Below are positions 1-56,894 of a DNA stretch of 64,000 nt, piece by piece. The notes under the pieces were generated by a model that ran no database searches, had not been told where the DNA came from, and was given only the letters and a program-made list of their open reading frames with translations. Position 1 is the stretch's first letter, and each line of letters begins with the position of its first letter. The translations under genes were made by a program, and so were the position numbers. Source of the stretch: a virus (taxonomy: Duplodnaviria; Heunggongvirae; Uroviricota; Caudoviricetes). Location: positions 1-64,000 of IMG/VR virus record IMGVR_UViG_2513237141_000003, one strand, 5' to 3'.

Positions 1-1173
1 CTAAACCGCTGCTTGCGTGCCTGTTTTTGTGCCTGCTTCGGAGCGGCCAAACATCACCCGATGCTTCTCCTCCGCGGTCAAAAACGCCAGATACATCTCG
101 GTCGTCTTGACGCTCGTGTGCCCGAGGCGTTGCTGTAAAACGTAGATAGAACGGCCACTTTTCAGCCAATTGACCGCATGCAGGTGCCGCAGATCGTGGA
201 AGCGGAAGGGGTGAAAGTCCTGTGCCTGTTTTTGTGCCTGCTTGGCCACGATCGCGACGATCCGGCGGAAGTTGCTCGAGACCTGGCTGTAAGGGCGCGC
301 GGCGGGCGCGCCTTCCTCTCGTAGACCCTTTGGCGGGCGGTACCAGAACAGGGCCTTGGTATCGAGGCTCGCCGGCAAGCTGGAGAATAGCCGGAAGCCA
401 AAATCCTCCTCACCATCGACCAGATCGACGACGCGCATCTTGTTCCGCTTGCCGACCACGGTGAGCTGCTTGCGCTCATTGTCGAAGTGGCGTCTGGCGC
501 CCTTGGCGAGCTCGTCAAGTCTAGCTCCGGTCATGACCGCCGCGCGGATCATATCGGCGAAAAGGCCTGGCGCCTTGGCGATCACCATCTCGACATGCCC
601 AGCCTCCGGCAGCACGATCGGGTCGCGCCGCTCCTGCAGGCGAGACTTCTTGCGGTGACCCGGCTTGAGCCAGTCCATCGCCGGGTTGGTCGAGATCCAT
701 TCCTCATCGACGCAGAAGTCGAAGACGGAGGAGAGCGCGGTGAGGTCGCGCTTGATGGTCGCTGGCTTGACCGTGATGGGGTGCTTCTTGCCCTTGGGGA
801 CGTAGGGCGTGTTCTGACGGCTCTCGACGATGGAGCCGATCAGTTTCTTGTCGATCTCGTCGAGATAGAGCCCCTCCAAATGTGGCTGCAGCACCGCCAG
901 CGAAGACAGGTATCGATTGAAGGTCTTGGGCCCGATCTTGTTGACGATGAACCGTCCCCATGCCTCCGTGGCCTCGCTGAGGGTCCTGCGGTGGTCCCCG
1001 TAGTACTGGGCGGCGACTACCCTATCCCTTTCGACTTCCCGACGTTTTGTCGCAGTTTTTGGATCGTCTGTGCGAAGTGACCATCGGTAGTCGCGGCCCC
1101 CGGCCTGAATCCGGCCCCAGAGGACGCCATCCCGCCAGTAACAACCCTTTGGGGCCTTCGGCTGTTTAGACAC
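1..1173 (-). CDS. int: tyrosine recombinase (phage integrase)
   Basis: 390 aa; C-terminal R..HxxR..Y catalytic motifs (HDLRH, LGHTSVKTTEMY); N-terminal arm-type domain. Confidence 0.9.
   Translation of the reverse strand: MSKQPKAPKGCYWRDGVLWGRIQAGGRDYRWSLRTDDPKTATKRREVERDRVVAAQYYGDHRRTLSEATEAWGRFIVNKIGPKTFNRYLSSLAVLQPHLEGLYLDEIDKKLIGSIVESRQNTPYVPKGKKHPITVKPATIKRDLTALSSVFDFCVDEEWISTNPAMDWLKPGHRKKSRLQERRDPIVLPEAGHVEMVIAKAPGLFADMIRAAVMTGARLDELAKGARRHFDNERKQLTVVGKRNKMRVVDLVDGEEDFGFRLFSSLPASLDTKALFWYRPPKGLREEGAPAARPYSQVSSNFRRIVAIVAKQAQKQAQDFHPFRFHDLRHLHAVNWLKSGRSIYVLQQRLGHTSVKTTEMYLAFLTAEEKHRVMFGRSEAGTKTGTQAAV
17..38. repeat. 22-bp direct repeat inside the int 3' end (copy 1)
   Basis: gtgcctgtttttgtgcctgctt; second copy at 222-243. 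Confidence 0.7.
222..243. repeat. 22-bp direct repeat inside int (copy 2)
   Basis: identical 22-mer, translated in a different frame (AKQAQKQAQ vs AGTKTGT). Confidence 0.7.
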
Positions 1174-2319: not shown

Positions 2320-3264
2320 TCACGCTGCGGTCGGCGCATGGACTTCGGGCAGACCGTGGCCGATGCTCGGCCGCGCGTGCTCGGGATGGTCCTTGAACCA
2401 CTCTTGGACCCTCCACAATTGGCCACATCCACCTCCTATGGTGTCCTGGCCGGCGGGATCGAACACACGGACATCGAAGCCGCGCGCGAGTAGGCGGTTG
2501 GCAAACGAGGTCGCCAGATCGCGCTGGTGCTGGTTGGTGGCTGGGATGCCCTCCGAGCGCTCGCACACGACGGAGACCGTGGCGCAGAAGATGGCAGGGT
2601 CGAACCACCCGAGGATGCGGTTGGCATCGGCGTCTGTCTCGTTGCCGTCGTGGGCGCAGTAGTTGAAGAACGGCTTGCGACCGGTGGCTACGTGCCAGTC
2701 CACACCGAACTCCATGATCTCGCGCAAAGTCATCTTCTGCTTGAACGGGATCAGCGCGTCACGTGCCTCGTCCGTGCTCTCGTGAACAGAGAACTGCAGG
2801 CCGATGGTCGGGATCTCGCGGCTGATGTCGAGGACCTCATTGAGGCCATGCCGGGTGAGTTTCGGCGCCGATGTCGAGATGAGCAACGCCGCCTTCGGAT
2901 AGCTGTAGTAGAGGTCCCGCAGTGCCGGCACGAGCGCTTTCAGATTGAGCAGCGGCTCGCCCATCGACATGAACATGATCTGCAGCCGACCGATCTCCTG
3001 CGGATCGGCGCCGACCAGGGAGAGTAGGTGGGCAGGCTGGGAGACGATCTCGCCGGCCGTGAGCGAGCGGGCGAAGTGATCGCCCGCGCCGCAGAACCTG
3101 CACCCAACGGGGCAACCCGACTGCGTGGAGCAACAGATCACGGTGCGGGTCTTGTAGTCTGGGTATTTGTAGAGCACGGCCTCAGCGACCGCGGTGTCCT
3201 TGGTGAACACGAATTTTGCGACGTTCTGGGCGGAATCGTCGATGCGACGGATATCGTTCCACAT
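2320..3264 (-). CDS. RlmN/Cfr-family radical SAM RNA methyltransferase-like protein
   Basis: CxxxCxxC (CPVGCRFCGAG), GMGEPLLN motif, C-terminal GGGCGQLW as in RlmN Cys355 region; hairpin-SD cassette upstream. Confidence 0.8.
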   Translation of the reverse strand: MWNDIRRIDDSAQNVAKFVFTKDTAVAEAVLYKYPDYKTRTVICCSTQSGCPVGCRFCGAGDHFARSLTAGEIVSQPAHLLSLVGADPQEIGRLQIMFMSMGEPLLNLKALVPALRDLYYSYPKAALLISTSAPKLTRHGLNEVLDISREIPTIGLQFSVHESTDEARDALIPFKQKMTLREIMEFGVDWHVATGRKPFFNYCAHDGNETDADANRILGWFDPAIFCATVSVVCERSEGIPATNQHQRDLATSFANRLLARGFDVRVFDPAGQDTIGGGCGQLWRVQEWFKDHPEHARPSIGHGLPEVHAPTAA

Positions 3265-10810: not shown

Positions 10811-11833
10811 TTACTTGACCTTCACTTCCCGCAATGAGCGGAAGCTGTAGGCAGCGCGCTGCTGTTCCTTGACGTTGGTGACCTTGAGCGAGAGCTTGCG
10901 GCCGCCAGCAATCAGCGCGAACGTGGCGGCGCCGATCTTGGCCATGATCTCGGTGGAGATCTCATCGCGGCGCTTCTCGCTTGAGCTGATCACCTCGCCG
11001 AGCTTCTTGCGCTCGTCGAACAGGTCGGGGAGCAGGTTATCGCTCGACAAGTCGATGATGCTGCCGTCGTCGACCGGATAGAGCTTGCGGACCAGGTCGT
11101 GGTCGCGGGTCGGGTCGATTGCAGGTACGCCGCCCGCATCCAACAGGTCCCAGAAGCCCTTGACGGTTTCGAGTATCTTCTGCTCGGCCACGGGGTGGCG
11201 CACGAGCGGGATCATCTTCAGGTCCTCGCTGAAGGTGTCGATCACCCATGCCGCGACGTAGGGGTGGATCACCTGCTTGAACGCAATCGAAGCAAGCATG
11301 GTCTCGGCCAGCGTCTGCAGCTGGTAGCCAAGGGGGACGATGGGGTTCGTCCCCTCGCGGTCGCCGCCGAGCCAGTCAGCCACGAACACCGGCTTCGCCA
11401 CGACCTTGCCCTGGATCAGGATCAGGCCCGGACGCTCCGGATCGATCGCCATGGCGTCGGGGGTCGCGCCAAAGCGCAAGGAAGGCGCGCGCAAGTAGAC
11501 CTTGCCGGCGCGGATTTCCCAGGAGGGGTTTTCTTCCTTGATCGTGGCCCACAACGAGGGCTCGAAGCGGCGACCGCGCCGCAGAACGGGGGTATCGGCC
11601 TTCTGGCCGATCTGGCCGGTTTTATCAGCCCAGACCTCGCGCGGAGACCGGTAACCGACGCCAGCAATCGAAGCGACGTCGGACGCCGTGACGTCCTTCT
11701 GGCGCAGCTTCAGCCAGCCCTCCCGGTCTCTTACGGGATCGACCTTGTGGATCTCGACGTCGCCGAGGGACAGCTCGCGGACGATGCCCATGGCGACATC
11801 GCCGATGGACCGGAACGAATCAACTTCGCTCAA
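10811..11833 (-). CDS. YqaJ-like (lambda Exo-type) recombination exonuclease
   Basis: YqaJ N-terminal motif (VTASDVASIAGVGYRSPREVWADKTG); TTG start 5 nt after the cassette SD. Confidence 0.8.
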   Translation of the reverse strand: MSEVDSFRSIGDVAMGIVRELSLGDVEIHKVDPVRDREGWLKLRQKDVTASDVASIAGVGYRSPREVWADKTGQIGQKADTPVLRRGRRFEPSLWATIKEENPSWEIRAGKVYLRAPSLRFGATPDAMAIDPERPGLILIQGKVVAKPVFVADWLGGDREGTNPIVPLGYQLQTLAETMLASIAFKQVIHPYVAAWVIDTFSEDLKMIPLVRHPVAEQKILETVKGFWDLLDAGGVPAIDPTRDHDLVRKLYPVDDGSIIDLSSDNLLPDLFDERKKLGEVISSSEKRRDEISTEIMAKIGAATFALIAGGRKLSLKVTNVKEQQRAAYSFRSLREVKVK

Positions 11834-11886: not shown

Positions 11887-11964
11887 GGGGATCAGCTTCG
11901 GGCGGGCGAGTGTTCGAGGTGGACGACTGGGGTTTGGTCTCCGTCAGCGACGCAACACTTGCAC

Positions 11965-12030
11965 CAACTCGGTGAAATGGTCAAGCGGCAATCGAACCAA
12001 ATTGGTGAAAAAATATATTCGTTGTGGGTG
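11965..12030. promoter_or_regulatory. candidate OL/pL region: TTGCACC-aactc-GGTGAAA palindrome + TTGGTGAAAAAA half-site
   Basis: same half-site family as the cI/cro intergenic sites; lies upstream of the leftward exo-int operon. Confidence 0.4.
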
Positions 12031-12039
12031 TCAACCATT

Positions 12040-12075
12040 CCTGACGGGGACATCGGGGGACGTCGGGGACATCGA
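12040..12075 (+). repeat. GGGGACRTCG iteron x3, direct
   Basis: ggggacatcgggggacgtcggggacatcg. Confidence 0.7.
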
Positions 12076-12116
12076 CTCGCGCGCATCCCTCAAAGCAAAG
12101 ATTCTATCGGGTATGA

Positions 12117-12146
12117 AAAAAGGCGGCCCTGAAGGCCGCCTATTTA
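12117..12146 (-). terminator. rho-independent terminator downstream of the cI-like gene (A/T tracts on both sides)
   Basis: aaaaaaggcggccctgaaggccgcctattt. Confidence 0.6.
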
Positions 12147-12236
12147 ATTCGATAAATCTCTTTCCAATTACTGAGATCTGTATGTGTCTTAGAGTCTACT
12201 ATCTATTGTTTGTCTAATAGCAAAAGTCGTGCCAGG

Positions 12237-12275
12237 GACGATGTCCCCGCAATGTCCACTTTCAATGTCCCCGTT
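12237..12275 (-). repeat. GGGGACAT-family iteron x3, inverted relative to the 12040 array
   Basis: cgatgtccccgcaatgtccactttcaatgtcccc. Confidence 0.7.
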
Positions 12276-12292
12276 TTATAAAACTTTTAAAA

Positions 12293-12910
12293 CTACTCCC
12301 AGGTGACGGGGGTCGCGAAGTAGGAGCCGATGATATCGCTGACCCAGACTATGCCGACATTTCGGATCGGCTCTATGCCGGCGGGGCCCGTTAGTCGGTA
12401 GCGATGGTCCTGCGTCTCCCTTGAGACCTCCCGCAGGAGGAGGGGGCGGTGGTTGGCACGCACGACCAGCATGTCGGTCCTGCCGTTGTGCTTGAAATCA
12501 GCGTGGACGAGCTCGCGCTGGTAGCTCTTGTCGTACAGGAGGTACTGGCCGAGCGAGGCGCCGGCATCGTCGGTCAGCTCGAGCGCCACGGTGTCGGCTG
12601 AGACCTCGACGCCGGTTGCAATCTTGCCTTTCGGTTCATCGAACATCTCGATCCGCAACCCCTTGCGGACGGCGCCGACTAGCGGCACCACGCCGGCCGT
12701 GAACCCGATCTCGGCGGGCGAGCAGCCGAAAGCCTTGGCAATGCGCTGCGCCCACGCCAGATCGATCGGACGCTGCCCCGTTTCCAGTTTTTGAATCTGT
12801 TGTTGCGAGGTGCCGGCCTTCCCGGCGACCGTTTCGCGTGACCAGCCGCGCTCATTTCGCATCTCAATGAGCCTCTCCGGCGGCGCTCGGTCCTTTCTAC
12901 GGTCCAGCAT
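12293..12910 (-). CDS. CI-like repressor (XRE HTH + C-terminal domain)
   Basis: HTH (LIEMRNERGWSRETVAGKAGTSQQQIQKLETGQR); divergent from the cro-like gene; operator repeats in the shared intergenic region. Confidence 0.7.
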   Translation of the reverse strand: MLDRRKDRAPPERLIEMRNERGWSRETVAGKAGTSQQQIQKLETGQRPIDLAWAQRIAKAFGCSPAEIGFTAGVVPLVGAVRKGLRIEMFDEPKGKIATGVEVSADTVALELTDDAGASLGQYLLYDKSYQRELVHADFKHNGRTDMLVVRANHRPLLLREVSRETQDHRYRLTGPAGIEPIRNVGIVWVSDIIGSYFATPVTWE

Positions 12911-12939
12911 TAATCCTCTCTGCTTTCCAATGCTGAAAA

Positions 12940-13025
12940 AAGTACCAGATTGGTGCAAGTCAGTCATCGAAACCGGATTGGTGAAAATGCCCGCTTGACA
13001 CTTCACCGACTTGGTGCAATTTTGC
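12940..13025. promoter_or_regulatory. cI/cro divergent control region with three TTGGTG(C/A)AA operator half-sites incl. TTCACC-gactt-GGTGCAA; TTGACA -35 for cro
   Basis: gattggtgcaag, gattggtgaaaa, cttgacacttcaccgacttggtgcaatttt. Confidence 0.45.
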
Positions 13026-13061
13026 GTGTCGCTGGCCGCACCCATCACGCAAGACGAATCC

Positions 13062-13313
13062 ATGTTCCTTCAAGACTATCTCTTGAAGACCTACCCCGGT
13101 CTTCGCTCTGGGCAGACCAGCTGGAACCAAGTCGAGATCGATTTCGCCGAAAAGGTTGGGACCAGTCGGCAGAACATCAACCGTTATCGCAAGTTTCAGC
13201 GCCACCCGCGACCGCCAATGGTCGCGCGAATCAGGAAGCTCACCAACGGACTGGTGGCCGCAGACGATCATCTGCCGCCTGAGCAACATCCGAGCAAGTC
13301 GAGATCGATCTGA
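13062..13313 (+). CDS. Cro-like HTH regulator
   Basis: 83 aa; HTH (FAEKVGTSRQNINRYRKF); divergent from the cI-like gene. Confidence 0.5.
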   Translation: MFLQDYLLKTYPGLRSGQTSWNQVEIDFAEKVGTSRQNINRYRKFQRHPRPPMVARIRKLTNGLVAADDHLPPEQHPSKSRSI

Positions 13314-13791: not shown

Positions 13792-14232
13792 ATGGCTTTA
13801 ATGACGCCCACCATACAATCCGTACATCTGAAAATCTCGGAATTTTCGTCTCCGGCCTTCGCCTCCAAGGCGGACGAAGCAAAAGCGCTCGTGCGTCGGT
13901 GCGCGGAGCCGTGCCCGGCCGGTGACTCCGTCAAGGAAGCCATCAACCGCGCGACAGACCGGCTCGGCTTCTCGACTTCGCGAACACAGGACTTTTGGTA
14001 TGGGGAGGCCAGACGAATTGACGACAACGAAATCGACAGGCTGCGCTACGTGGCGGACGCGACTGAGATGTTGGTCGCTCAGGAAGCGCTCAAGACGCTT
14101 CGTAAGCGCATGGCGGTATCGGATTCTCCGCTGTCTCGTGAGGTCGTGCACCGCCTTGATGCTTGCTTCAGCCTTCTCCGCGGCGTTCCTTTCGGAATGC
14201 ATGTCGGACGGCAGCGGGGCTGCCGATCGTGA
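13792..14232 (+). CDS. hypothetical protein
   Basis: AGAGGG SD; AT-rich promoter-like region upstream. Confidence 0.45.
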   Translation: MALMTPTIQSVHLKISEFSSPAFASKADEAKALVRRCAEPCPAGDSVKEAINRATDRLGFSTSRTQDFWYGEARRIDDNEIDRLRYVADATEMLVAQEALKTLRKRMAVSDSPLSREVVHRLDACFSLLRGVPFGMHVGRQRGCRS

Positions 14233-14768
14233 ATAGGGTGCAGCACATATGGAGCGACGACAACATCGCCATGGTCCGCAATCTTGCGGACAAGGGTGAC
14301 AGTTCGGCCGAGATCGCCGCCAAGTTGAGCGCGGCCACAGCCCGGCGCGTCACGAAGAATGCGGTGGTCGGCATCTGCACGCGGAGGGGCATCCAGCTCA
14401 AGAACAAGAGTTTTGCGCCCGCAAAGCCGAAGCGGGAGCCGCAGCCAAGGTCTTATCTCGCGCCAAAGAATACTACCCCCGCACCCAAGGGGTTCGTGAG
14501 GGTGCCTACTCCGGTGATGTCGCCGGAGGCGACGCTGCCCATCACGAAATTTACTCCGGCTAAACCGTCGGAGACTAGCGTTTCGATTTACGAGCTTAAC
14601 TCTGATCTATGCCACTGGCCGTTGGGAGATTTCGCAGATCGCCCTCCGTACCGGTACTGCGGCGCGAGGGTCTTCGCAGGACCCTGGTGCCTCTGCCACT
14701 TCAGGCAGGCGACTGAAAACAAGGAGACCAGCCATGCCCAAGGGACATTCAAGGCCGAAGCAGCGTAG
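14229..14768 (+). CDS. gcrA: GcrA-like cell-cycle transcriptional regulator
   Basis: N-terminal W.DD...L..L...G.SA.EIAA.L....R.AV.GK..R.GL; C-terminal C.WP.GD.......CG......YC..H motif. Confidence 0.75.
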   Translation: MNRVQHIWSDDNIAMVRNLADKGDSSAEIAAKLSAATARRVTKNAVVGICTRRGIQLKNKSFAPAKPKREPQPRSYLAPKNTTPAPKGFVRVPTPVMSPEATLPITKFTPAKPSETSVSIYELNSDLCHWPLGDFADRPPYRYCGARVFAGPWCLCHFRQATENKETSHAQGTFKAEAA

Positions 14769-20826: not shown

Positions 20827-21225
20827 GTGACAGACAACGTAAACAATCCCGCCCACTATGGCGGCAAGGACAATCCGTTCGAAACGATCAAGGTTCTGGA
20901 GGCGTGGCTGACGCCGCAGGAAGTCGTCGGCTTCCTCAAGGGCAACGTCATCAAGTACCAGTCGCGTGCCAACGCCAAGAACGGCGCGGAAGATTACGCG
21001 AAATCATCCTGGTACGCGAACCGGCTCGCCGAGTTCATCAAGACCGTCAATCTGCCGACCGCGCCAGTCGTGAACCCCAAGCAGGCCGAGGCTGACGGCA
21101 AGATCATCTTTGCGCAGGCCGCCAAGATTCAGATCCTGCGAGATGGCATCCGCGGCGCCATGTTCAAAATGGCTTCGCGCAACCCGCTCCGCTCGACTCT
21201 GAAGAAGCTACTGGAGATTGCCTGA
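20827..21225 (+). CDS. DUF3310-family phage protein
   Basis: N-terminal NNPAHYGG...E.I.VLEAW signature; GTG after cassette. Confidence 0.6.
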   Translation: MTDNVNNPAHYGGKDNPFETIKVLEAWLTPQEVVGFLKGNVIKYQSRANAKNGAEDYAKSSWYANRLAEFIKTVNLPTAPVVNPKQAEADGKIIFAQAAKIQILRDGIRGAMFKMASRNPLRSTLKKLLEIA

Positions 21226-21935
21226 TGGACAAGATCAGCATTCTCCCGGAGACCAAGATCGACGTGCTCGACCATGGGTTCGTGCGCCTCGTTGACCACC
21301 TTGGTAACGATCTTTCCGTTGTTCGCGCGGCGAGGGTTTCTTACGACGCCGCATGGCGGGCTGGCGAGGACACGGGGTCGGATCACCGCCTTATCCACTA
21401 CCTGATGCGTAACCGGCACACGACGCCATTCGAGAGCGTGGAGTTTCAGTTCGAGGTGATGGCGCCGATCTCGGTGTTCCGTCAGTGGCACCGGCACCGG
21501 ACGGCCACGATCAACGAGCTGTCCGCTCGCTACCGTGAACTGCCGGAGGTGTTCTATGTGCCGCTGCAGCGTCACGTCGGGGTGCAGTCGCTGTCGTCGA
21601 AGCAGGCGCGTATCTTCATCAAGGAAGGCGACCCCTTGCCGGAGGATCTGTGCGGGCAGATCGGCGCCTATGTGGAGTCGTGCCAAAACTCGTTCCGGAC
21701 CTATCGGGCGCTGCTCGCGGCCGGTTGGCCGCGCGAACTCGCCAGGAACGTTCTTCCGCTGGCGACCTATTCGCACATGTTCTGGAAGTGCGACCTGCAC
21801 AATCTGCTTCACTTCCTGAACCTGCGGACGCACGAGCACGCGCAATACGAAATACGCGTGTTTGCCGAGGCGATCCTCAAGCTAATCCGCCCGATGGTGC
21901 CGGTCTGTGTGGCGGCGTGGGAGGAACAGATCTGA
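21225..21935 (+). CDS. thyX: FAD-dependent thymidylate synthase
   Basis: ThyX motif RHRTATINELSARY; length 236 aa. Confidence 0.9.
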   Translation: MDKISILPETKIDVLDHGFVRLVDHLGNDLSVVRAARVSYDAAWRAGEDTGSDHRLIHYLMRNRHTTPFESVEFQFEVMAPISVFRQWHRHRTATINELSARYRELPEVFYVPLQRHVGVQSLSSKQARIFIKEGDPLPEDLCGQIGAYVESCQNSFRTYRALLAAGWPRELARNVLPLATYSHMFWKCDLHNLLHFLNLRTHEHAQYEIRVFAEAILKLIRPMVPVCVAAWEEQI

Positions 21936-23581: not shown

Positions 23582-23815
23582 GGGGCCCTGCCAAGGGGCC
23601 ATGGGACCTAGCCAAGGGCCCGGAACCGCCCCTTTTGCAGTGCACAAACCGGGCCCGGATGAGGGGCCCGAAAGCAGGGGAAACCCTGCCATATGGCAGG
23701 GCCCGCAGGCTTGGCAGGGCAGGCAGGGAACCGCTTAGGCGAGGGGCCCGCTACCCGTGACCGGACAAGGGGAACCGGGCCCCGAGGGGCCCGCTTTTAG
23801 GGGCCCGAACTGCCG
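23581..23815. repeat. GGGCCC-rich cluster (about 9 copies of RGGGGCCCG-like motif in about 235 bp) at the convergent block junction
   Basis: counted by eye; expected <0.5 copies by composition. Confidence 0.7.
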
Positions 23816-23881
23816 GGAAATGGGCTATTTTACCCGGATATAAATAGAATACCTAAATACCGCCAAATGGGCAAATAAAAG

Positions 23882-23926: not shown

Positions 23927-24313
23927 TCACTTGAACAGAAGCAGGCTTACGCGCTCCCACGGAAAATGTTCTCGCGCAATCTTGGCCTCGGTCTGAGCGC
24001 GACCGTTGCCTTTCTTGTTCATGTCGTTGATGGCCATCCGGATCTGCACCGGACTCACACCCAAGGCTTCCACAAGCCAAAGAATCATGGGCCCACAATT
24101 GAGTCTCTGGTACAGCGTGCGGGCGTCAGTGACGGTCGTGTCCGACCTGCCGTAATACCCGCCATCTTCCGAGTTGTAATCTCCCGCCCAGCCAAGCCAG
24201 TGATCCTGGTGGGTCGGGTATCCGCTCTTATACAAACGGTCCGTCTCCGGCATGGTGGCCGGCAGGCGCCGGACCGCTGCCAAGAGCTCCTTGATCGAAT
24301 GTGCTTTCATCAT
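23927..24313 (-). CDS. hypothetical protein
   Basis: last gene of the leftward block; variant cassette upstream; terminator downstream. Confidence 0.5.
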   Translation of the reverse strand: MMKAHSIKELLAAVRRLPATMPETDRLYKSGYPTHQDHWLGWAGDYNSEDGGYYGRSDTTVTDARTLYQRLNCGPMILWLVEALGVSPVQIRMAINDMNKKGNGRAQTEAKIAREHFPWERVSLLLFK

Positions 24314-24332
24314 CGTTGCAATCGCATCCCTT

Positions 24333-24424: not shown

Positions 24425-24441
24425 TTGCACCAACGTGGTGC
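24425..24441. promoter_or_regulatory. operator-like palindrome TTGCACC-aacgt-GGTGCTC
   Basis: same family as cI/cro operators; in the non-coding stretch next to the orphan cassette. Confidence 0.35.
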
Positions 24442-24476
24442 TCGGCTTAAGAAGTGAGTGTCTCTGGTGGAGAGCT

Positions 24477-24536
24477 GGGATGGTCTCCTTGCGGCTCCTT
24501 GAGACACCGGCCCCGGAGCTGCGAACTCCGGGGCCA
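24477..24536 (-). promoter_or_regulatory. orphan hairpin-SD cassette with no ORF
   Basis: ggccccggagCTGCGAActccggggcc (10-bp stem) + caaggagacc; no start codon follows. Confidence 0.5.
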
Positions 24537-24547
24537 ACTTTTTTTAT
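24510..24547 (+). terminator. hairpin + T7 tract (plus-strand intrinsic-terminator form); same hairpin as the orphan cassette
   Basis: ggccccggagctgcgaactccggggcc aacttttttt. Confidence 0.45.
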
Positions 24548-29276: not shown

Positions 29277-30959
29277 TTAGAGGTCCAGCGCGCGGCCGCC
29301 GGAGACGGCCGCCAACTCGACGACGTTCTCAGGCGCGGAGGCAAAGCGGGCCCGCTTCTCGGCCCACTCCTTCAGCTTTTTGATCTTGGCCTCGGCGGTC
29401 TGGGCTAGCGGCGTCGTGGCCTTGGCGCACTTGACGAGGTCGGCGACCTTGATCGGCCGCTCGCCGTCGGCGAAGGCGGCGAACATGGCGCTGGGGACGA
29501 GCTCGGCGATCTCCGATCCGGTGAATTTATCGGTCGCCGCCACGATCAGTGGCAAATCGTCCTGATCGAGGTCGTCGAGCTTCCGCCCCTTGGCCTTGAG
29601 CGCCGCCCGCAACACCTCCAGGCGCTCCCGCTTGTTCGGCAGGTCGACGAAGAACAATTCGTCAAACCGGCCCTTGCGCAGGAACTCGGGCGCATTGGTC
29701 GTTATGCTGTCGAGATCGTTGGCGGTGGCGATGACAAAGGCCTCGTGCGGCTCGTTCATCCACTGCAGCAGCGCGCCGAGTTGGTCGCTCGACACGCCGC
29801 CATCGGCTGCGCCGCCGGTGGCGCCAGCGAGCGCCTTCTCGACCTCGTCGATCAGGAGCACGCAACGCCCAATCGCTTCGATGGTGCGAAGCGCCTTGCG
29901 TAGGTTGGCCTCACTCTCACCAACGAACTTGCCCTTGAGGGCGCCGAGGTCGAGCTTGATCAACGGACAGCCGAATGCCGAGGCGAGTGCCTTGGCGGTC
30001 AGCGTCTTGCCGCAGCCGGGGATGCCGCCGAGGAAGCAGCCCTTGGGCGGCGGCAGGCCATAGGCGCGGGCCTTCGCGCTGTACGCCAGCTTGCGCTCCA
30101 ACGCCCACGCCTTGAGGACTTCGAGACCGCCGACGCCGTCGATGCCGTCGGGCAGGGGGTCCATCCACTCCAACACGCCCGACTTGGAGATGACGCGCTT
30201 TTTCTCCTTGGTCACGGCGATCGGGTCGATCTTGCGCAGCTGCACCAGGCTCTTGGCGTAGCAGGCCTGAGCCTCCTCACCGGAGAGGCCGGTCGCAGCA
30301 TCAATCGCCGCATCCCGAACGCCGTTGGGTGCGGCGAGCGCGCGCATCGGCTTGGTGGGATCAGGGATAGGCATCCGCGTTGCCGCATCGAGGATCGGCT
30401 TGCCGGTGTCCGGATCGACCTTGTTCTCGAACTCAGGCAACGAGTTGATCTGGGCATCGAGCAGGGCCGCAACCTCGTTGCGGTCCGGCATCGGCCATTC
30501 GATCACGGTGGCATGGTTGCCGAGCTCGGCCGGCACGTCGCCCGAGGGCGAGATCACGATCAGGGCCTGTGCTGCATCGCGCGGCATGCCGGGCAGGTCG
30601 AGGGCCAGGTTGCGCACCTGACGGCAGGTCACCATGCCGCCAGGGCCGACGATCCACGGCGGCAGGTCGCGCATGATCCATGCGCCGCGATCGCTCTTGG
30701 CCTCCGCGCGGCTCCGGATCACCTTCAAGGTCTCGCCGATGTCCATCGTCTCGGGGCCGAACTCATTCTGCTCGCCCTTGACATCGACGACGCCGCGGCC
30801 GCAGTCCCACGATCTCGGGATATAGCCGGCGGCGATCGCCGCCTCCTTGAGGTACTTCTCGACCCGGGGCTCCTCTTTCGTCACGATCCAGATCAACGGA
30901 TTGCGCGCGCGAAGCAGGAAGGCGACGTCGGCCGCCACTTCTTCAGACTTGGTTTTCAC
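29277..30959 (-). CDS. AAA+ ATPase (classical clade) with ~300-aa N-terminal domain
   Basis: Walker A GIPGCGKT; Walker B LLIDEVE; second region of homology RKGRFDELFFVDLP; GTG start after cassette. Confidence 0.8.
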   Translation of the reverse strand: MKTKSEEVAADVAFLLRARNPLIWIVTKEEPRVEKYLKEAAIAAGYIPRSWDCGRGVVDVKGEQNEFGPETMDIGETLKVIRSRAEAKSDRGAWIMRDLPPWIVGPGGMVTCRQVRNLALDLPGMPRDAAQALIVISPSGDVPAELGNHATVIEWPMPDRNEVAALLDAQINSLPEFENKVDPDTGKPILDAATRMPIPDPTKPMRALAAPNGVRDAAIDAATGLSGEEAQACYAKSLVQLRKIDPIAVTKEKKRVISKSGVLEWMDPLPDGIDGVGGLEVLKAWALERKLAYSAKARAYGLPPPKGCFLGGIPGCGKTLTAKALASAFGCPLIKLDLGALKGKFVGESEANLRKALRTIEAIGRCVLLIDEVEKALAGATGGAADGGVSSDQLGALLQWMNEPHEAFVIATANDLDSITTNAPEFLRKGRFDELFFVDLPNKRERLEVLRAALKAKGRKLDDLDQDDLPLIVAATDKFTGSEIAELVPSAMFAAFADGERPIKVADLVKCAKATTPLAQTAEAKIKKLKEWAEKRARFASAPENVVELAAVSGGRALDL

Positions 30960-30963
30960 GATT

Positions 30964-31006
30964 GGTCTCCTTGGAGGGAAATGCCGGGCGCTGCGAACGC
31001 CCGGCG
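30964..31006 (-). promoter_or_regulatory. hairpin-SD cassette
   Basis: gccgggcgCTGCGAAcgcccggc; AAA+ gene. Confidence 0.6.
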
Positions 31007-31014
31007 GGTTGAAG

Positions 31015-32109
31015 TCAGATGTGGCAGTCGACGACGGCGAGCCAGGTCTCCGGGGGCAGGTCGTCAAGCAGCTTGGCGAACTCCTCGTCCCAGACGTCGC
31101 CGTCCTTCTCGTTGGATACGCAGGCGAACCAGCCCATCTCGCCTCGTTCGTACCATTGGCCGTCTTTCACGACGGCGAAGGTCTGCACGGCGCGGCGTCG
31201 GGCGCGGGTGGCCACCTGAGCCCGTGTCATCCAGAACTTCTTGATGACATCGTCATCATCGAAGAAGCCGATTATCTCGGCTTTCTTGAGGTCCTCGATC
31301 GGGGGCTGGCTCCAGTATGATTCGCGGGTCTGCTCGATGTCGCCGCCGCACTCCTCCTTGACTGTATCCCACGACTTGTAGGAGCGGCCGGCGATGACCT
31401 CCTGCGCTTTATCGAACTGCTTCAGTGCAGCGACCTCCGCCTCGTTGCGGAGCGCTTCGAGCGGGATGTCCTTGAGCTGGGCGACGTTGCCGACGTTCTT
31501 CCACCTCGACGGCCACTTCGTCTTTACGCCTTTGCCGTTGCAGTGAGGGCAGGGCCTCGGGCCGTCATCGCGCAATTGCTTCCCCTTGTGACAGAAGTCG
31601 CAAATCTCCTCATTGTCAGGGTCAGTCTCCGGCTGATAGTTCGGGGCGAACATGCCAGCCCAGCGGCCGCCGATCGTCCAGCCATCCCATTTCGCATTGG
31701 GGTTGGTGTGGCGATAGAAGCGGCCGTCGCGCTCGAAGGCGCCGAAATAGTCGGTAGCGCATTCGGCCGGCGTCGCATAGCCGAGGCCGTGCTGGCGGGC
31801 CTCCACGGCCGGCAACTCCAGCTCGACGGCGCCATCCGGTAGCTTGAACTCCTTGTCACCCCAGCTCTGATCTGGAACTTCGACATAGAAACATGGGTCG
31901 TATCGATCCAGGAACGTGCCGCACACGAGCTTCACCACGGACACCGGCTTGTTGAACTGCTCCATGACCTCGTCGGTCTTGTCCACGTCGATGACGTATT
32001 GGTCGTCAATTCCCGTGCACTCGAACTCGTGGAACGGCTGTAGGATCGGGCGGAGGCTCTCCTCGTCGAGCTTGGTGGGAGAGATGACGAGAACGGTAAA
32101 GTGACTCAT
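31015..32109 (-). CDS. hypothetical protein with CxxC...CxxC zinc ribbon
   Basis: 364 aa; WDGWTIGGRW segment; cassette upstream. Confidence 0.55.
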   Translation of the reverse strand: MSHFTVLVISPTKLDEESLRPILQPFHEFECTGIDDQYVIDVDKTDEVMEQFNKPVSVVKLVCGTFLDRYDPCFYVEVPDQSWGDKEFKLPDGAVELELPAVEARQHGLGYATPAECATDYFGAFERDGRFYRHTNPNAKWDGWTIGGRWAGMFAPNYQPETDPDNEEICDFCHKGKQLRDDGPRPCPHCNGKGVKTKWPSRWKNVGNVAQLKDIPLEALRNEAEVAALKQFDKAQEVIAGRSYKSWDTVKEECGGDIEQTRESYWSQPPIEDLKKAEIIGFFDDDDVIKKFWMTRAQVATRARRRAVQTFAVVKDGQWYERGEMGWFACVSNEKDGDVWDEEFAKLLDDLPPETWLAVVDCHI

Positions 32110-47654: not shown

Positions 47655-47843
47655 TCAGGCGCCGGTTTTGATCTCGGTGCCGTTGGCGAAGATCGAGACG
47701 ATCTTATCGCCGGAATGAACGAGAAACACGCCGTTATACCGGCGTGAGTGTTTGGCGGCATCCTCTTTGGCCTGCCGGATCGAGCGGCGCGGATGGGTTT
47801 CGAGTTCGCCATCGCCAGCGAGATGGCTGATTTTGATTTGCAT
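47655..47843 (-). CDS. hypothetical protein (first gene of the leftward block)
   Basis: cassette upstream; adjacent to the 1-kb control region. Confidence 0.5.
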   Translation of the reverse strand: MQIKISHLAGDGELETHPRRSIRQAKEDAAKHSRRYNGVFLVHSGDKIVSIFANGTEIKTGA

Positions 47844-47847
47844 GATC

Positions 47848-47906
47848 GGTCTCCTTGGTTTGAGGCGTAGAACGGTGCGGCGAAACATGCGCCGCACTGC
47901 GCTACG
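47848..47906 (-). promoter_or_regulatory. SD 10-mer + long nested palindrome
   Basis: ggcgtag..gtgcggcgaaacatgcgccgcac..ctacgcc. Confidence 0.45.
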
Positions 47907-48308
47907 CCTAGGGCCCGGTATATGACGGGGCCCTAGGGCATAGTGCGCAAAGCCCGGTTGCCCATTTGCGAAGCGGGGCCGGTTGCTACGAACAGCGCGG
48001 GAAACCACTGCAACGATGCGGAGGCCGATGCTTAATGAAGCGGGGCCAAAATGCGGGTGCAGTACCCGACAAGCCTAGACGGTGCTGTAAGCCTTGGCCC
48101 CATGCTGCGAGCGCAGACGGAGAGGCAAGCCACTATGCTTTGGACACCGGTGCATTGCCTTTTGTTTGAGGAGGCATTGCGCACCCGACCCGAGGCGGGA
48201 CTCTGCAAGGCTAACAGCGACTAGCTTGCTGTTAGGGCCATTCCGAGTAGGGGCGCAGTAGCGCAGGCCGGGCACTGCCAAGAGGCAAGCCCTTGGCAAG
48301 GGAGAGAA

Positions 48309-48360
48309 TGCACCAAGATGGTGAAAAACGGAAGCGAAAGTTTGCACCGCTTTGGTGCAA
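48309..48360. promoter_or_regulatory. two operator-like sites: TGCACCA-aga-TGGTGAAAAA and perfect TTGCACC-gcttt-GGTGCAA
   Basis: within the 1-kb control region between the divergent gene blocks. Confidence 0.45.
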
Positions 48361-48439
48361 TATATAGAGAGTGCCCTATTTTGGCCTAAGCCTTTGAAAT
48401 TGCTAGGTTTTACCCCAAAAACAGGCCCAAAACCGCCCA

Positions 48440-48735
48440 AAGGGGCCCCAAATTGGCCCCACACCCAAGGAATGGGCCCGGCCGGGCCCCGATAGAGCAG
48501 GGGACCCGCTACAGGGGCGGAAAGACCGGCGGCGCTAGGCAAGGCAGGGCCCGGGAAACGGCCCTATTGGGCCCGCGCTAGGGCCCCAGAGCTACCCCAA
48601 AATGGGCCCAAAAACGGGCCCCAAAAGATGAGCTGGCGAGGGGCCCCTGCGCCCAGGTACGCAGGGGTAAACAGGGAACGGCCCGAAACGGGGCCCATAG
48701 GCGGGAAGGCTGATTCGGGGCCCCAAAAGGGCCCG
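48440..48735. repeat. GGGCCC-rich cluster (about 12 copies, often GGGCCCCAAAA units) in the divergent control region
   Basis: e.g. tgggcccaaaaacgggccccaaaag; ttcggggccccaaaagggcccgcaa. Confidence 0.7.
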
Positions 48736-48744
48736 CAACCCCAT

Positions 48745-48985
48745 AGGGGACATTTGGCCCCGTAAGGGGACAACGAGACAGAGCGCGGAACGCCAAGGGG
48801 ACATTCGGGGGACATCGGCCTTTCGGCACCATGTCCCCTTCAACGGCGCCATTAGAGAAATCAATCACTTAAGCCCGTTATCGGAATCCCGACATCGGTC
48901 CCCGGCACCAGCCGTCCCGATGTCCACGTTCCCAGTCGAATGTCCCCATGTCCCCAAAGTGTCCCCTTTCGATGTCCCTTTAATG
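48745..48985. repeat. GGGGACAT iteron field: about 4 forward copies then about 6 inverted copies
   Basis: ggggacattt, ggggacaacg, ggggacattcgggggacatcg | atgtcccc x3, atgtccac, gtgtcccc, atgtccc. Confidence 0.7.
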
Positions 48986-49585
48986 TTCTGGCTGAGGACT
49001 CGCGACGCAGCTAACATCCTGATCCGCATGGCGGATATCGCGCAGACATTGGCGGCGGACGTTCTGGAGGCATCGGGGCTGTCGTGCCTGTATGCCGAGC
49101 CAGGCGCAGGAAGTGTGCGGATCACCATCGGCGGCATCGCTGCGCGCAAGAAACCCGGCACAAGGCTCTGGCTTCGCTCGCAAAAGCAGGCCGAACGGGT
49201 ATTGGCCGAGTTGATGGCCAGTCACCGCGAGGCGCGCAAGAACGCTCGTGGCGGCCTCTTCGTGGCCGCCGAGCCCGAGATGGTCGAGAAGATGCTGCGG
49301 GTGTGCGCCGGCCGCCTCGGGTATGCGATCTCGCCCGATGAGCACCTGGACGTCACGCTGTCCTCGCTTCAGAAGCGGATCGGCAAAGCCATCGACGCCC
49401 TGCAGTCCACCGGTCAGATGAAGAAGCTCAATCGAGAATATGCCGCGCTCCGAAAGGGGACATTGCTCGGGGACATCAAGGGGACATCGGGGACATCGTT
49501 ACCATCGTACTCCGAATGGCTGGTCGATCGGCTCAAGAAGCAGCTTCCGGCCTACACCAATCTGGCGAACTTCACGATTTTGTGA
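48983..49585 (+). CDS. hypothetical protein; its gene is embedded in GGGGACAT iteron arrays
   Basis: start uncertain (48920/48983/49028); four iterons lie inside its 3' coding region. Confidence 0.45.
   Translation: MFWLRTRDAANILIRMADIAQTLAADVLEASGLSCLYAEPGAGSVRITIGGIAARKKPGTRLWLRSQKQAERVLAELMASHREARKNARGGLFVAAEPEMVEKMLRVCAGRLGYAISPDEHLDVTLSSLQKRIGKAIDALQSTGQMKKLNREYAALRKGTLLGDIKGTSGTSLPSYSEWLVDRLKKQLPAYTNLANFTIL
49447..49497 (+). repeat. GGGGACAT x4 direct, inside the coding sequence
   Basis: ggggacattgctcggggacatcaaggggacatcggggacatcg. Confidence 0.7.
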
Positions 49586-49842
49586 TCAAATCTGAAACAC
49601 AAGCAATATCATCAAGTTGATATCGATTTTCGTCGTCGGTCCAAATTCATTGCGGAAAATCAGCATTGATCTCGGGCGGAAAATCGGCTCTACACGCGCC
49701 TGCGCCACGTCGACAAGTGTGTCTTGAAGGGTGAGGCGAGCTCAAGCGAGCCTCAACCCAACTCTCAGACATCTGACAAGACTGGGTGGAGAAGGTCTCT
49801 TAGAGATTCTCCATAGCGGCGCCTTCCTCACAAGCCAAGCGA

Positions 49843-49895
49843 TGTCCCCGACCCGGCAATGTCCCGGGGGCCGGAAGAGGACATGTCCCCCTTGG
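49843..49895 (-). repeat. GGGGACAT-family x3 inverted (incl. GGACATGTCC palindrome)
   Basis: gatgtccccgacccggcaatgtcccggg...gaggacatgtccccc. Confidence 0.6.
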
Positions 49896-56606: not shown

Positions 56607-56682
56607 TCTGGACGTAGCGCAGTTGGTAGCGTACCGCACTTGGAATGCGGGGGTCGTCGGTTCGAGCCCGACCGTCCAGACC
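56607..56682 (+). tRNA. tRNA-Pro (TGG)
   Basis: cloverleaf; acceptor ctggacg/cgtccag; anticodon loop cuUGGaa; CCA encoded. Confidence 0.8.
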
Positions 56683-56684
56683 AA

Positions 56685-56772
56685 TCCGTGAGTGCCGGAG
56701 TGGTCAATCGGGGCGGGCTGTAAACCCGCCGGCTTTCGGGCCTTCGCTAGTTCAAATCTAGCCTCACGGACC
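56685..56772 (+). tRNA. tRNA-Tyr (GTA), long variable arm
   Basis: acceptor ccgtgag/ctcacgg; loop cuGUAaa; CCA. Confidence 0.8.
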
Positions 56773-56775
56773 AAT

Positions 56776-56851
56776 TACCCGCTTGGTCCAGTGGTCTAAG
56801 ACGTCGGACTTTGACTCCGAAGACAGTCGTTCAAATCGACTAGCGGGTGCC
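56776..56851 (+). tRNA. tRNA-Gln (TTG)
   Basis: acceptor acccgct/agcgggt; loop cuUUGac; CCA. Confidence 0.75.
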
Positions 56852-56894
56852 AAGAGATTGACCAGCCGCAGGTTGATCGGCTATCAGGCTGGGC

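What the first reader, a model, noticed from the sequence alone, without database searches (positions are those of the whole stretch)
11965..13025. Lambda-like immunity switch with TTGCACC-N5-GGTGCAA operators that recur at two distal loci
A CI-like repressor gene lies divergent from a cro-like gene with three half-site repeats in between; one full palindrome overlaps a TTGACA -35 element. Related sites lie upstream of the leftward exo-int operon (candidate OL). Further sites occur at 24425-24441, beside the orphan cassette, and at 48309-48360 in the 1-kb control region, where one is a perfect palindrome. The repressor may therefore hold three operons silent, in the manner of dispersed stoperators, and not only pL and pR.
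Basis: seen in the sequence. Interest (0 to 1): 0.5.

Follow-up and report, generated by a model that had tools for sequence, protein, structure and literature searches.

The report
Phage repressor operators, including a distal pair
A Bradyrhizobium prophage has an ordinary lambda-style repressor switch, and the same repressor-binding sequence recurs as a strong pair 36 kb away between two other gene blocks, so one repressor probably silences more than the two classical operons, a layout already known in other large phages.

Summary
A CI-like gene (12293-12910, minus) faces a Cro-like gene (13062-13313). Three 19-bp dyads of the type TTGCACC-N5-GGTGCAA lie between them, and two more lie upstream of the leftward exo-to-int operon. 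The dyads next to PR and PL start 0-1 nt after TTGACA/TTGACC -35 boxes.

A weight matrix trained only on these sites ranks 48342, 48308 and 24425 as the best three other hits in 64 kb. The 48.3-kb pair is 34 bp apart, and 48342 is a perfect palindrome. No such pair arose in 400 simulated sequences. The 24425 site is marginal, with 0.13-0.31 hits of that score expected by chance.

Independent support comes from four viral contigs. Each carries a CI homologue with the same recognition helix, starting about 10 nt from an exact TTGCACC-N5-GGTGCAA palindrome.

The 48.3-kb pair sits in a 1.1-kb non-coding region between two divergent gene blocks, so direct repression there is likely. The stoperator analogy fails: the sites are symmetric, few, and in a control region. 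The repressor's S24-like domain has lost its catalytic Ser and Lys, so RecA-driven self-cleavage is unlikely.

Verdict: a real feature, and a new member of a known kind, comparable to P1 C1 with its dispersed operators.

The parts
1..1173 (-). Tyrosine integrase gene, cut by the window edge; distal end of the leftward operon
   Evidence: Pfam Phage_integrase, E = 4e-13
10811..11833 (-). YqaJ-type exonuclease, first gene downstream of candidate PL
   Evidence: Pfam YqaJ, E = 2e-8; ORF list
11959..11977 (.). OL1 dyad TTGCACCAACTCGGTGAAA (1 mismatch to consensus); it covers the spacer and -10 region of the leftward promoter
11979..11984 (-). Candidate PL -35 box TTGACC, 1 nt upstream of OL1 on the minus strand
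   Evidence: Sequence. About 45 bp of extended similarity to PR. Not flagged by the strict sigma-70 scan.
11992..12010 (.). OL2 dyad TCGAACCAAATTGGTGAAA, 33 bp from OL1 start to start
12121..12141 (-). Terminator-like hairpin followed by a T-run, downstream of cI, inside a 41% GC island
12293..12910 (-). cI-like repressor, 205 aa. N-terminal HTH_3 domain plus an S24-like C-terminal domain in which the catalytic Ser is Ala and the catalytic Lys is Arg.
   Evidence: Pfam HTH_3, E = 4e-13. 13 of 28 full-length relatives hit Peptidase_S24. Alignment with LexA.
12940..12958 (.). OR3-like dyad AAGTACCAGATTGGTGCAA, 30 bp from the cI start codon
12968..12986 (.). OR2-like dyad CGAAACCGGATTGGTGAAA; the weakest left half, missed by the 3-mismatch pattern search
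12995..13000 (+). Candidate PR -35 box TTGACA
   Evidence: Sequence; alignment with PL
13001..13019 (.). OR1-like dyad CTTCACCGACTTGGTGCAA, directly after the PR -35 box
13062..13313 (+). cro-like gene, 83 aa, weak HTH_3 match. First gene of the rightward block, which also holds a GcrA-like gene, a primase-helicase and ThyX, and runs to about 23.6 kb.
   Evidence: Pfam HTH_3, E = 0.006; gene calls on L001
24425..24443 (.). Candidate single weak operator TTGCACCAACGTGGTGCTC. It lies between the end of the large leftward block and a one-gene leftward cassette (23927-24313) that has its own terminator.
   Evidence: Third-best hit outside the immunity region, 15.3-15.9 bits, 0.13-0.31 expected by chance; context
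47655..47845 (-). First gene (62 aa) of the leftward block that runs from 47.8 kb down to 24.5 kb
   Evidence: RBS CAAGGAGACC followed by ATG; gene calls on L003
48308..48326 (.). Distal operator O48a ATGCACCAAGATGGTGAAA (2 mismatches)
48342..48360 (.). Distal operator O48b TTGCACCGCTTTGGTGCAA. A perfect palindrome and the best consensus match in the window, 34 bp from O48a.
48358..48412 (.). AT-rich patch (36% GC) holding a TATATA box that runs on from O48b; candidate -10 region for transcription in either direction
   Evidence: Sequence; GC content. The strict sigma-70 scan called no promoter here.
48983..49585 (+). First gene of the rightward block that runs from 49 kb past 64 kb. Function unknown. 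The called start is 48983 (Logan) or 49028 (NCBI).
   Evidence: no family or fold match

Best explanation
The window is the left 64 kb of an integrated prophage of Bradyrhizobium sp. Tv2a-2. The prophage is large: these 64 kb show no structural genes among the ORFs tested.

It carries a lambda-type switch. A dimeric CI-like repressor (HTH_3 plus an S24-like dimerisation domain) binds 19-bp dyads with consensus TTGCACC-N5-GGTGCAA.

OR1 and OL1 start 0-1 nt after the -35 boxes of two near-duplicate promoters, PR and PL, and cover their spacer and -10 regions. Bound repressor would therefore exclude RNA polymerase from both. That silences the cro/replication block (13.1-23.6 kb) and the exo-to-int block (11.8 kb down to 1). 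OR2, OR3 and OL2, spaced 28-33 bp (about three helical turns), would allow cooperative binding and autoregulation.

The same repressor also binds a pair of operators at 48308-48360. These sit in the 1.1-kb non-coding region between two further divergent gene blocks, beside the AT-rich TATATA patch. There the repressor directly represses the promoter(s) of one or both blocks.

The 24425 site may be a weak additional site.

The repressor's catalytic Ser and Lys are replaced by Ala and Arg, so induction probably needs an antirepressor or another route, not RecA-stimulated self-cleavage.

Shown here: the sites, their statistics, the geometry, the domain composition, and the family-level link between repressor and dyad. 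Inferred: binding itself, promoter positions and directions, and the regulatory outcome.
For: - Sites and geometry.
- Enrichment: 5 sites at up to 2 mismatches against 0.20 expected. The excess is spacer-specific.
- Out-of-sample matrix scans rank exactly the flagged sites first. No simulated pair matched the 48.3-kb pair in 400 runs.
- PR and PL share about 45 bp, including the -35 box directly followed by the dyad.
- CI has HTH_3. Full-length relatives are HTH plus Peptidase_S24. Ser is Ala and Lys is Arg in this protein.
- No CI paralogue exists in the window.
- Comparative support: 119 viral-contig stretches were retrieved solely because they contain an exact TTGCACC-N5-GGTGCAA. The only four with a CI homologue (L064, L038, L074, L051; E from 1e-9 to 3e-7) have the palindrome about 10 nt upstream of that gene's start codon. 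They also have a divergent Cro-like gene, further CACC-N5-GGTG dyads in the intergenic region, and a conserved recognition helix (TSxQQ[IV]x[KR]LExGQR).
- No gene is called between 47843 and 48983, and the flanking blocks diverge from that region.
- The only detectable relative of the first rightward gene also sits behind a 1.4-kb non-coding gap facing leftward genes.
Against: - There are no binding or expression data.
- The simple sigma-70 scan called no promoter at PR, PL, 48.3 kb or 24.4 kb. The -10 elements are poor, and the direction controlled at 48.3 kb is unresolved.
- Outside the dyad, the distal sites share no sequence with PR or PL.
- No relative with readable DNA covers the 48.3-kb region, so the distal sites have no phylogenetic footprint.
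- Three of the four comparative contigs are near-identical to each other, so they add only two lineages to this one.
- The 24425 site is compatible with chance.
Confidence: 0.68

Rival explanations
1. Only OL and OR are functional. The distal matches at 48.3 kb and 24.4 kb are fortuitous or vestigial sequences with no regulatory role.
For: The 24425 site scores at a level expected 0.13-0.31 times per 64 kb. No promoter consensus was found at either distal locus. There is no comparative footprint for the distal loci.
Against: The 48.3-kb pair contains the best consensus match in the window. No pair of that quality arose in 400 simulations. Its 34-bp spacing matches the 33 bp seen at OL and OR. 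It lies in the divergent non-coding region next to the AT-rich patch.
Confidence: 0.1
2. The distal sites act as stoperator-like roadblocks to elongation rather than as promoter operators. In particular, 24425 would stop read-through from the large leftward block into the one-gene cassette.
For: 24425 lies between the last hairpin-plus-RBS module of the leftward block and the cassette's RBS. The hairpin at 24509-24535 has no T-run in the leftward direction, so read-through is plausible.
Against: The sites are dyad-symmetric and so carry no orientation. Only three exist outside the immunity region in 64 kb, although about 100 intergenic junctions are available. The strong pair is in a control region, not in a short intergenic gap. 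The defining stoperator features are not met.
Confidence: 0.08
3. The 48.3-kb pair serves mainly as an auxiliary site for long-range looping or cooperativity with OL/OR, or as a Cro target that turns down early transcription in lytic growth. It would not be an independent lysogenic operator.
For: Lambda-type repressors form higher-order loops between operator clusters, and Cro proteins share operators with CI (established knowledge of lambda). OL1 and OR1 here are 1042 bp apart, a loop-compatible distance.
Against: A 35-kb loop would add little local concentration. The pair's position between two divergent blocks that have no other evident control fits local repression better.
Confidence: 0.07
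4. The dyads are bound by a different protein, either a host regulator or another phage HTH protein, and not by the adjacent CI.
For: No binding data exist. Other viral contigs carry arrays of the same dyad without a CI homologue (L079, L024, L032).
Against: The sites cluster around cI and cro, directly after the -35 boxes. No CI paralogue is in the window. In other lineages, CI homologues with the same recognition helix sit about 10 nt from the identical palindrome.
Confidence: 0.05

Closest known systems
Phage lambda and 434 type CI/Cro switch (OL/OR)
   Same: Gene order int ... exo - PL/OL - cI - OR/PR - cro - replication genes. Multiple dyad operators are shared by OL and OR. Promoter-proximal operators overlap the core promoters. 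The repressor combines an N-terminal HTH with a LexA/S24-type C-terminal domain. The nearest solved-structure matches are XRE-type HTH proteins, with 434 repressor and 434 Cro only as weak, non-significant hits (E about 0.2-0.4).
   Different: The operators are 19 bp and spaced 28-34 bp, whereas lambda's are 17 bp and about 24 bp apart (my knowledge). OL has two sites. The catalytic Ser and Lys of the S24 domain are replaced. A further strong operator pair lies 35 kb away.
Bacteriophage P1 C1 repressor with dispersed operators
   Same: One repressor controls many separate promoters spread over a large temperate phage genome. P1 has 22 operators (PMC8546580).
   Different: P1 operators are asymmetric 17-mers. 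P1 C1 is a different kind of protein (my knowledge; not tested here). P1 is a plasmid prophage. Here only one solid distal locus is seen in 64 kb.
Cluster A mycobacteriophage (L5 gp71) stoperators
   Same: Repressor sites lie outside the immunity region, and the idea is genome-wide silencing by one repressor.
   Different: Stoperators are asymmetric 13-mers bound by a monomer, exceed 20 per genome, are oriented with transcription and block elongation (PMC9283540). None of these features is met here.
Streptomyces phiC31 c repressor with conserved inverted repeats, and N15 CB repressor acting at the repA promoter (both recalled from memory; not confirmed in the searchable library)
   Same: Palindromic operators for one repressor occur at several early promoters or at a replication-gene promoter far from the repressor gene.
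   Different: The protein families and hosts differ, and the number of sites differs. I could not confirm details from a held paper.
HTH plus S24 repressors on IMG/VR contigs L064, L038, L074 and L051
   Same: They are homologous repressors (25-28% identity, same recognition-helix motif) with the identical TTGCACC-N5-GGTGCAA palindrome, a divergent Cro-like gene, and a second dyad beyond cI in an OL-like position.
   Different: Their S24 catalytic motifs (GDSM ... K) are intact. The perfect palindrome sits about 10 nt from the repressor's own start codon. The contigs are 8-48 kb. Only one perfect palindrome per contig was returned.

Membership tests
Lambda-type CI/Cro immunity switch | Divergent repressor and cro genes separated by an intergenic region with several operators | tested here: met
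   cI is at 12293-12910 (minus) and cro at 13062-13313 (plus). The 152-bp intergenic region holds three dyads.
Lambda-type CI/Cro immunity switch | The same dyad-symmetric operator is used at a second, leftward early promoter (OL) | tested here: met
   Two dyads at 11959 and 11992 lie upstream of exo. A matrix trained on OR alone ranks them first in the window.
Lambda-type CI/Cro immunity switch | Operators overlap the core elements of PR and PL | tested here: inconclusive
   TTGACA and TTGACC boxes lie 0-1 nt upstream of OR1 and OL1, and the two regions are near-duplicates over about 45 bp. No good -10 box is present, and the sigma-70 scan did not call either promoter. Start sites are unknown.
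Lambda-type CI/Cro immunity switch | Repressor has an N-terminal HTH and a C-terminal S24 (LexA-like) domain with a Ser/Lys dyad that self-cleaves with RecA | tested here: not met
   HTH_3 is present. The C-terminal domain is S24-like by homology (13 of 28 full-length relatives hit PF00717) but gets no Pfam hit itself.
Lambda-type CI/Cro immunity switch | Cooperative binding and OL-OR looping; Cro competes at the same operators | not testable with these tools
   Only the spacing is known: 28-34 bp between neighbouring dyads and 1042 bp from OL1 to OR1.
Stoperators (cluster A mycobacteriophages) | Asymmetric 13-bp site bound by a monomeric two-domain repressor | tested here: not met
   The sites are dyads; 3-7 of the 7 half-site positions are symmetric, and all 16 half-sites end in ACC. 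Definition taken from PMC9283540.
Stoperators (cluster A mycobacteriophages) | More than 20 sites in short intergenic gaps across the genome, oriented with transcription | tested here: not met
   Only three sites lie outside the immunity region in 64 kb. No hit of 14 bits or more lies in the many short gaps between the genes of the blocks.
Stoperators (cluster A mycobacteriophages) | Sites block transcription elongation | not testable with these tools
   This needs transcription assays.
Multi-operator phage repressor regulon (P1 C1 type) | The immunity repressor's operator recurs at promoters of operons remote from the repressor gene | tested here: met
   Met for one locus, the pair at 48308-48360 between divergent blocks (0 of 400 simulations). 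Marginal for 24425. Promoter function is inferred, not shown.
Multi-operator phage repressor regulon (P1 C1 type) | Homology to P1 C1 and its asymmetric 17-bp operator ATTGCTCTAATAAATTT | tested here: not met
   The operator here is a symmetric 19-mer of unrelated sequence (compared). Protein homology to P1 C1 was not tested directly; this protein is an HTH_3/S24-type repressor.

The most novel reading that the evidence does not exclude
The strongest CI operators in this prophage do not guard cro or exo. They guard a second control module at 48-50 kb. That module consists of GGGCCC-rich tracts and convergent arrays of the octamer GGGGACAT, which bracket an orphan 185-200 aa gene and an AT-rich segment. 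A third such array pair lies just downstream of cI.

If these arrays are iteron-type origin or partition sites, then a catalytically dead, non-SOS-cleavable CI would directly gate a plasmid-like or P4-like replication module inside an integrated lambda-like prophage. Induction would run through an unidentified antirepressor.
Probability: 0.12. Interest if true: 0.55.

Novelty: new member of a known kind. Interest (0 to 1): 0.33.

Why it matters
It gives a concrete, testable repressor regulon for a large, essentially uncharacterised prophage of a legume-associated Bradyrhizobium. That regulon is eight predicted operators at four loci, with a defined consensus.

It shows how a lambda-type switch can be scaled to a genome with several independent early transcription blocks by copying the operator to another control region.

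The pairing of recognition helix and dyad, seen in three lineages, could help predict immunity groups in alphaproteobacterial prophages.

The dead S24 catalytic dyad predicts that this prophage is not induced by the classical RecA cleavage route.

None of this overturns current understanding.

Tried and rejected
**Relatives that would cover the distal locus**
- There is no close phage in INPHARED by DNA or protein and no plasmid match.
- In the 5.8-billion-protein search, CI and the 101-aa neighbour match only themselves.
- The 185-aa protein has one relative, P0152. Its contig's gene map is visible but its DNA is not.
- Scans of viral, metagenome and genome contigs with CI, P0002, exo and the A2 alignment gave nothing useful. 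L002 has an unrelated immunity layout.
- The Logan contigs L001 and L003 are 100% identical to the window.

**Function of the first rightward gene**
- It has no Pfam, PHROG, NCBIfam, PADLOC or PDB sequence match.
- The AlphaFold model is poor (pLDDT 62.5), and the Foldseek matches are meaningless.

**Direction of transcription at 48.3 kb**
- The sigma-70 scan found nothing.
- Both strands of 47858-48350 fold better than shuffled sequence (z = -3.0 and -4.0), so the fold does not indicate a strand.
- Rfam finds nothing.

**A CI-controlled anti-Shine-Dalgarno sRNA at 24455-24546**
- The idea rested on TTGCAC-N17-TAAGAA, a strong plus-strand terminator and a fold z-score of -4.0.
- I downgraded it because the hairpin and the GGTCTCCTTG are simply one more copy of the hairpin-plus-RBS module used about 27 times by leftward genes.

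**Other dead ends**
- An unbiased dyad search over the whole window was swamped by GC-rich low-complexity sequence.
- The Mesorhizobium phage vB_MseS-P1 has a CI homologue (27.6% identity), but its intergenic region shows a different repeated motif (TTCCCCAT), so it is uninformative here.
- Resemblance of the dyad to sigma-54 promoters or the alphaproteobacterial LexA box: rejected on sequence, from memory of those consensus sequences.
Full report
**What the window is**

The window is 62% GC. It starts with a tyrosine integrase at 1-1173 on the minus strand. Of the roughly 45 larger ORFs scanned against Pfam or PHROGs, those with a match hit phage-type families: a YqaJ exonuclease, SSB, NinB, a RusA-like protein, a primase-helicase, ThyX and a DNA methyltransferase. 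It also carries ten tRNA genes and an RNA ligase. None of the ORFs tested matched a structural protein.

Two proteins are annotated in public records as Bradyrhizobium sp. Tv2a-2, on a 380-kb contig. So this is the left 64 kb of a large integrated prophage. It has no close relative among isolated phages.

The genes fall into five blocks:
- a leftward block from exo to int, from 11.8 kb down to 1;
- cI, 12293-12910, leftward;
- a rightward block from cro to about 23.6 kb;
- a leftward block from 47.85 kb down to 24.5 kb;
- a rightward block from about 49.0 kb to beyond 64 kb.

A one-gene leftward cassette with its own terminator lies at 23927-24313.

**The observation**

There are eight 19-bp sites of the form TTGCACC-N5-GGTGCAA: OL1 at 11959, OL2 at 11992, OR3 at 12940, OR2 at 12968, OR1 at 13001, and then 24425, 48308 and 48342. 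All 16 half-sites end in ACC. The half-site consensus is TT(G/T)CACC.

The sites are more than chance:
- At up to 2 mismatches there are 5 sites against 0.20 expected, and 0 of 100 shuffles reached 5.
- At up to 3 mismatches there are 7 against 2.54 expected.
- The excess is confined to a 5-nt spacer: 7 hits, against 0-3 for spacers of 2-9 nt.

To avoid circularity I trained weight matrices only on the immunity-region sites.
- A matrix built from the three OR sites ranks OL2, OL1, 48308, 48342 and 24425 as the five best other hits in 64 kb.
- With an OL+OR matrix, 48342 scores 21.0 bits and 48308 scores 19.7 bits. The best hit in simulated sequence averaged 14.6 bits and reached those two scores in 0.75% and 2.5% of 400 simulations. 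None of the 400 produced such a pair 20-45 bp apart.
- The 24425 site scores 15.3-15.9 bits, with 0.13-0.31 such hits expected per window. It lies in the roughly 19% of the window that is intergenic, but alone it is only suggestive.

**Anatomy of the switch**

The repressor is 205 aa with a clear HTH_3 domain. An exhaustive HMMER search found full-length relatives at 25-41% identity, and 13 of 28 of these match Peptidase_S24. So the C-terminal domain is LexA/CI-like.

In this protein and in its nearest relative P0002, the catalytic Ser is not conserved (Ala here) and the catalytic Lys aligns with Arg. The protein is therefore a CI-type repressor in architecture, but it is predicted not to self-cleave.

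The Cro-like protein (83 aa) has a weak HTH_3 match.

On the plus strand, TTGACA at 12995-13000 is followed immediately by OR1. On the minus strand, TTGACC at 11984-11979 is followed, after one base, by OL1. The two regions are near-duplicates over about 45 bp.

A repressor bound there would cover the spacer and the -10 region of both promoters, which is the classical occlusion arrangement. The -10 elements are poor and the strict sigma-70 scan did not call these promoters, so this step is inference.

Start-to-start spacing is 33 bp at OL and 28 and 33 bp at OR, about three helical turns.

**The distal pair**

O48a and O48b are 34 bp apart, the same geometry as at OL and OR. They contain the best consensus match in the window (0 and 2 mismatches).

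They lie in a stretch of about 1.1 kb (47846-48982) in which no gene is called. This stretch sits between the first gene of the leftward 47.8-to-24.5-kb block and the first gene of the rightward block.

O48b runs straight into a TATATA box at the edge of a 36% GC patch, in a region that is otherwise 62-68% GC.

Two readings fit:
- a rightward promoter, TTGCAC-N17-TAGAGA, with its -35 inside O48b;
- a leftward promoter, with TATATT as the -10 and a start site inside O48b.

Neither the promoter scan, nor RNA folding of the long leader, nor Rfam decides between them.

These two blocks are not downstream of PL or PR, so they need their own control in the lysogen. Direct repression by CI is the simplest reading.

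The only detectable relative of the first rightward gene (P0152, 56% identity in the pairwise alignment) also sits behind a 1.4-kb gene-free gap facing leftward genes. The control-region layout is therefore conserved, but that DNA was not retrievable.

**Independent link between repressor and dyad**

I scanned IMG/VR for exact TTGCACC-N5-GGTGCAA. I then ran tblastn of the window's CI against all of them. It hit only four: L064, L038, L074 and L051, with E from 1e-9 to 3e-7.

In every one of the four:
- the palindrome ends about 10 nt upstream of the homologue's start codon;
- a Cro/YdaS-like gene diverges on the other side;
- the short intergenic region holds further CACC-N5-GGTG dyads.

In three of the four (L064, L038, L074), a second related dyad also lies about 1.1 kb away beyond the repressor gene, in an OL-like position.

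The recognition helices agree: TSQQQIQKLETGQR here against TSTQQVERLEKGQR or TTPQQVERLEKGQR there.

Three of the four contigs are near-identical, so they add two lineages to this one. Even so, the association cannot be chance, and it supports CI as the protein that reads this dyad. No CI paralogue exists in the window.

**The 24425 site**

This site lies 84 nt upstream, in the leftward sense, of the RBS of the one-gene cassette. It is 40 nt past the last hairpin-plus-RBS module of the big leftward block, and that module has no ORF after it.

It could be a weak promoter operator for the cassette, a roadblock, or chance. I rate it at about 0.35-0.4 as a functional site.

An attractive idea was a CI-controlled small RNA with anti-Shine-Dalgarno sequence ending at the plus-strand terminator 24509-24546. 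That idea weakened once the hairpin proved to be one of about 27 copies of a standard intercistronic element.

**Comparison with known systems**

In how it works, and in most of its defining features, the immunity region is a lambda/434-type CI/Cro switch. The exception is the RecA-cleavable catalytic dyad, which I tested and found not met.

The distal pair makes the repressor a multi-locus regulator, which is a known theme. P1 C1 has 22 dispersed operators (PMC8546580). L5-type repressors have more than 20 stoperators (PMC9283540). From memory, the phiC31 c repressor and the N15 CB repressor also act at remote promoters.

I therefore file this as a new member of a known kind: real, coherent and testable, but not surprising to a specialist. 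Interest 0.33.

**Limits**

All regulatory statements are inferred from sequence. The part of the prophage beyond 64 kb was not available. The distal locus has no phylogenetic footprint, because no relative with readable DNA could be found.

Noticed in passing
window 12046-12078 / 12234-12272; 48746-48818 / 48831-48981; 49454-49497 / 49835-49890: Convergent arrays of the octamer GGGGACAT, with plus-strand copies on the left and minus-strand copies on the right, at three loci. There are 18 exact copies against roughly 2.5 expected, and 15 of them fall in these loci. The arrays bracket the 41% GC island and terminator just downstream of cI, the region upstream of the first rightward gene, and that gene's 3' end plus an AT-richer intergenic stretch. 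They look like iteron-type or other protein-binding arrays. Function is unknown.
   Followed up: partly
window 23582-23830 and 48413-48760: Two non-coding tracts of 68-69% GC packed with GGGCCC and GGGGCCC words: 9 and 12 GGGCCC per kb, against 2 or fewer elsewhere. Each lies near a distal operator-like site. There is no extended similarity between the two tracts beyond the short words.
   Followed up: partly
window, about 27 sites, for example minus-strand 47622, 46253, 44990, 40659, 38201, 32140, 29069, 24525, 11880, 9339, 3448; plus-strand 14673, 19384, 19847, 20797: Intercistronic hairpins with an invariant 7-nt loop UUCGCAG and variable, always complementary stems of 4-13 bp. Most lie 3-20 nt upstream of an extended RBS (C)AAGGAGACC and a start codon; two lie 35-38 nt upstream. 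This is a repeated RNA element of unknown role; it could be a processing site, a stabiliser or a translation element. TTCGCAG occurs 27 times on the minus strand and 9 times on the plus strand.
   Followed up: partly
window 24483-24546: One hairpin-plus-RBS module has the longest stem (13 bp) and no start codon or ORF after it. On the plus strand the same hairpin is followed by T7, so it reads as a strong rightward intrinsic terminator, although no annotated rightward gene ends there. Either a gene was lost, or a short rightward transcript starts near the 24425 dyad.
   Followed up: partly
window 24310-24327 (minus strand): A 5-codon mini-ORF (ATG CGA TTG CAA CGA TGA) sits behind the RBS of the one-gene cassette. 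Its stop codon overlaps the ATG of the 128-aa gene, which suggests translational coupling.
   Followed up: no
window 56608-59836: A cluster of ten tRNA genes (Pro, Tyr, Gln, Ser, Phe, His, Cys, Asn, Thr, Met), interleaved with an RNA ligase gene at 58445-59749 that has a PHA02142 OB-fold domain.
   Followed up: no
window 12293-12910 (CI residues about 110-165): The S24-like domain has Ala in place of the catalytic Ser and Arg in place of the catalytic Lys. The nearest homologue, P0002 (41% identity), has also lost the catalytic residues. These may form a small non-cleaving subfamily of CI-like repressors.
   Followed up: yes
window 11940-11996 (minus strand) and 12983-13040 (plus strand): The PL and PR regions are near-duplicates over about 45 bp: GCCGCTTGAC(A/C), then the dyad, then TGCGT..CGCTG. 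The similarity extends beyond the operator into the start of the transcribed region.
   Followed up: yes
window 14163-14768, 21225-21935, 2320-3264, 29277-31067: Accessory genes in the early blocks: a GcrA-like cell-cycle regulator, ThyX, a radical-SAM protein, and a 596-aa AAA ATPase with similarity to the defence protein IetA.
   Followed up: no
L079 4037-4245 (IMGVR_UViG_3300048924_000203, a 109-kb contig, 65% GC): An array of at least six (T/A)TGCACC-N5-GGTGCAA dyads at about 35-bp spacing, just downstream of an ORF. There is no CI homologue and no similarity to this window. The same dyad seems to be used there as a repeated array, perhaps a centromere-like or iteron-like site.
   Followed up: partly
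L004 2880-2980 and 3540-3590 (Mesorhizobium phage vB_MseS-P1): This distant CI homologue (27.6% identity, annotated as LexA repressor) lies in a similar cI/cro/cII/GcrA layout. It is flanked by a different repeated motif, TTCCCCAT/ATGGGGAA, including an inverted pair around a TTGACA box.
   Followed up: partly
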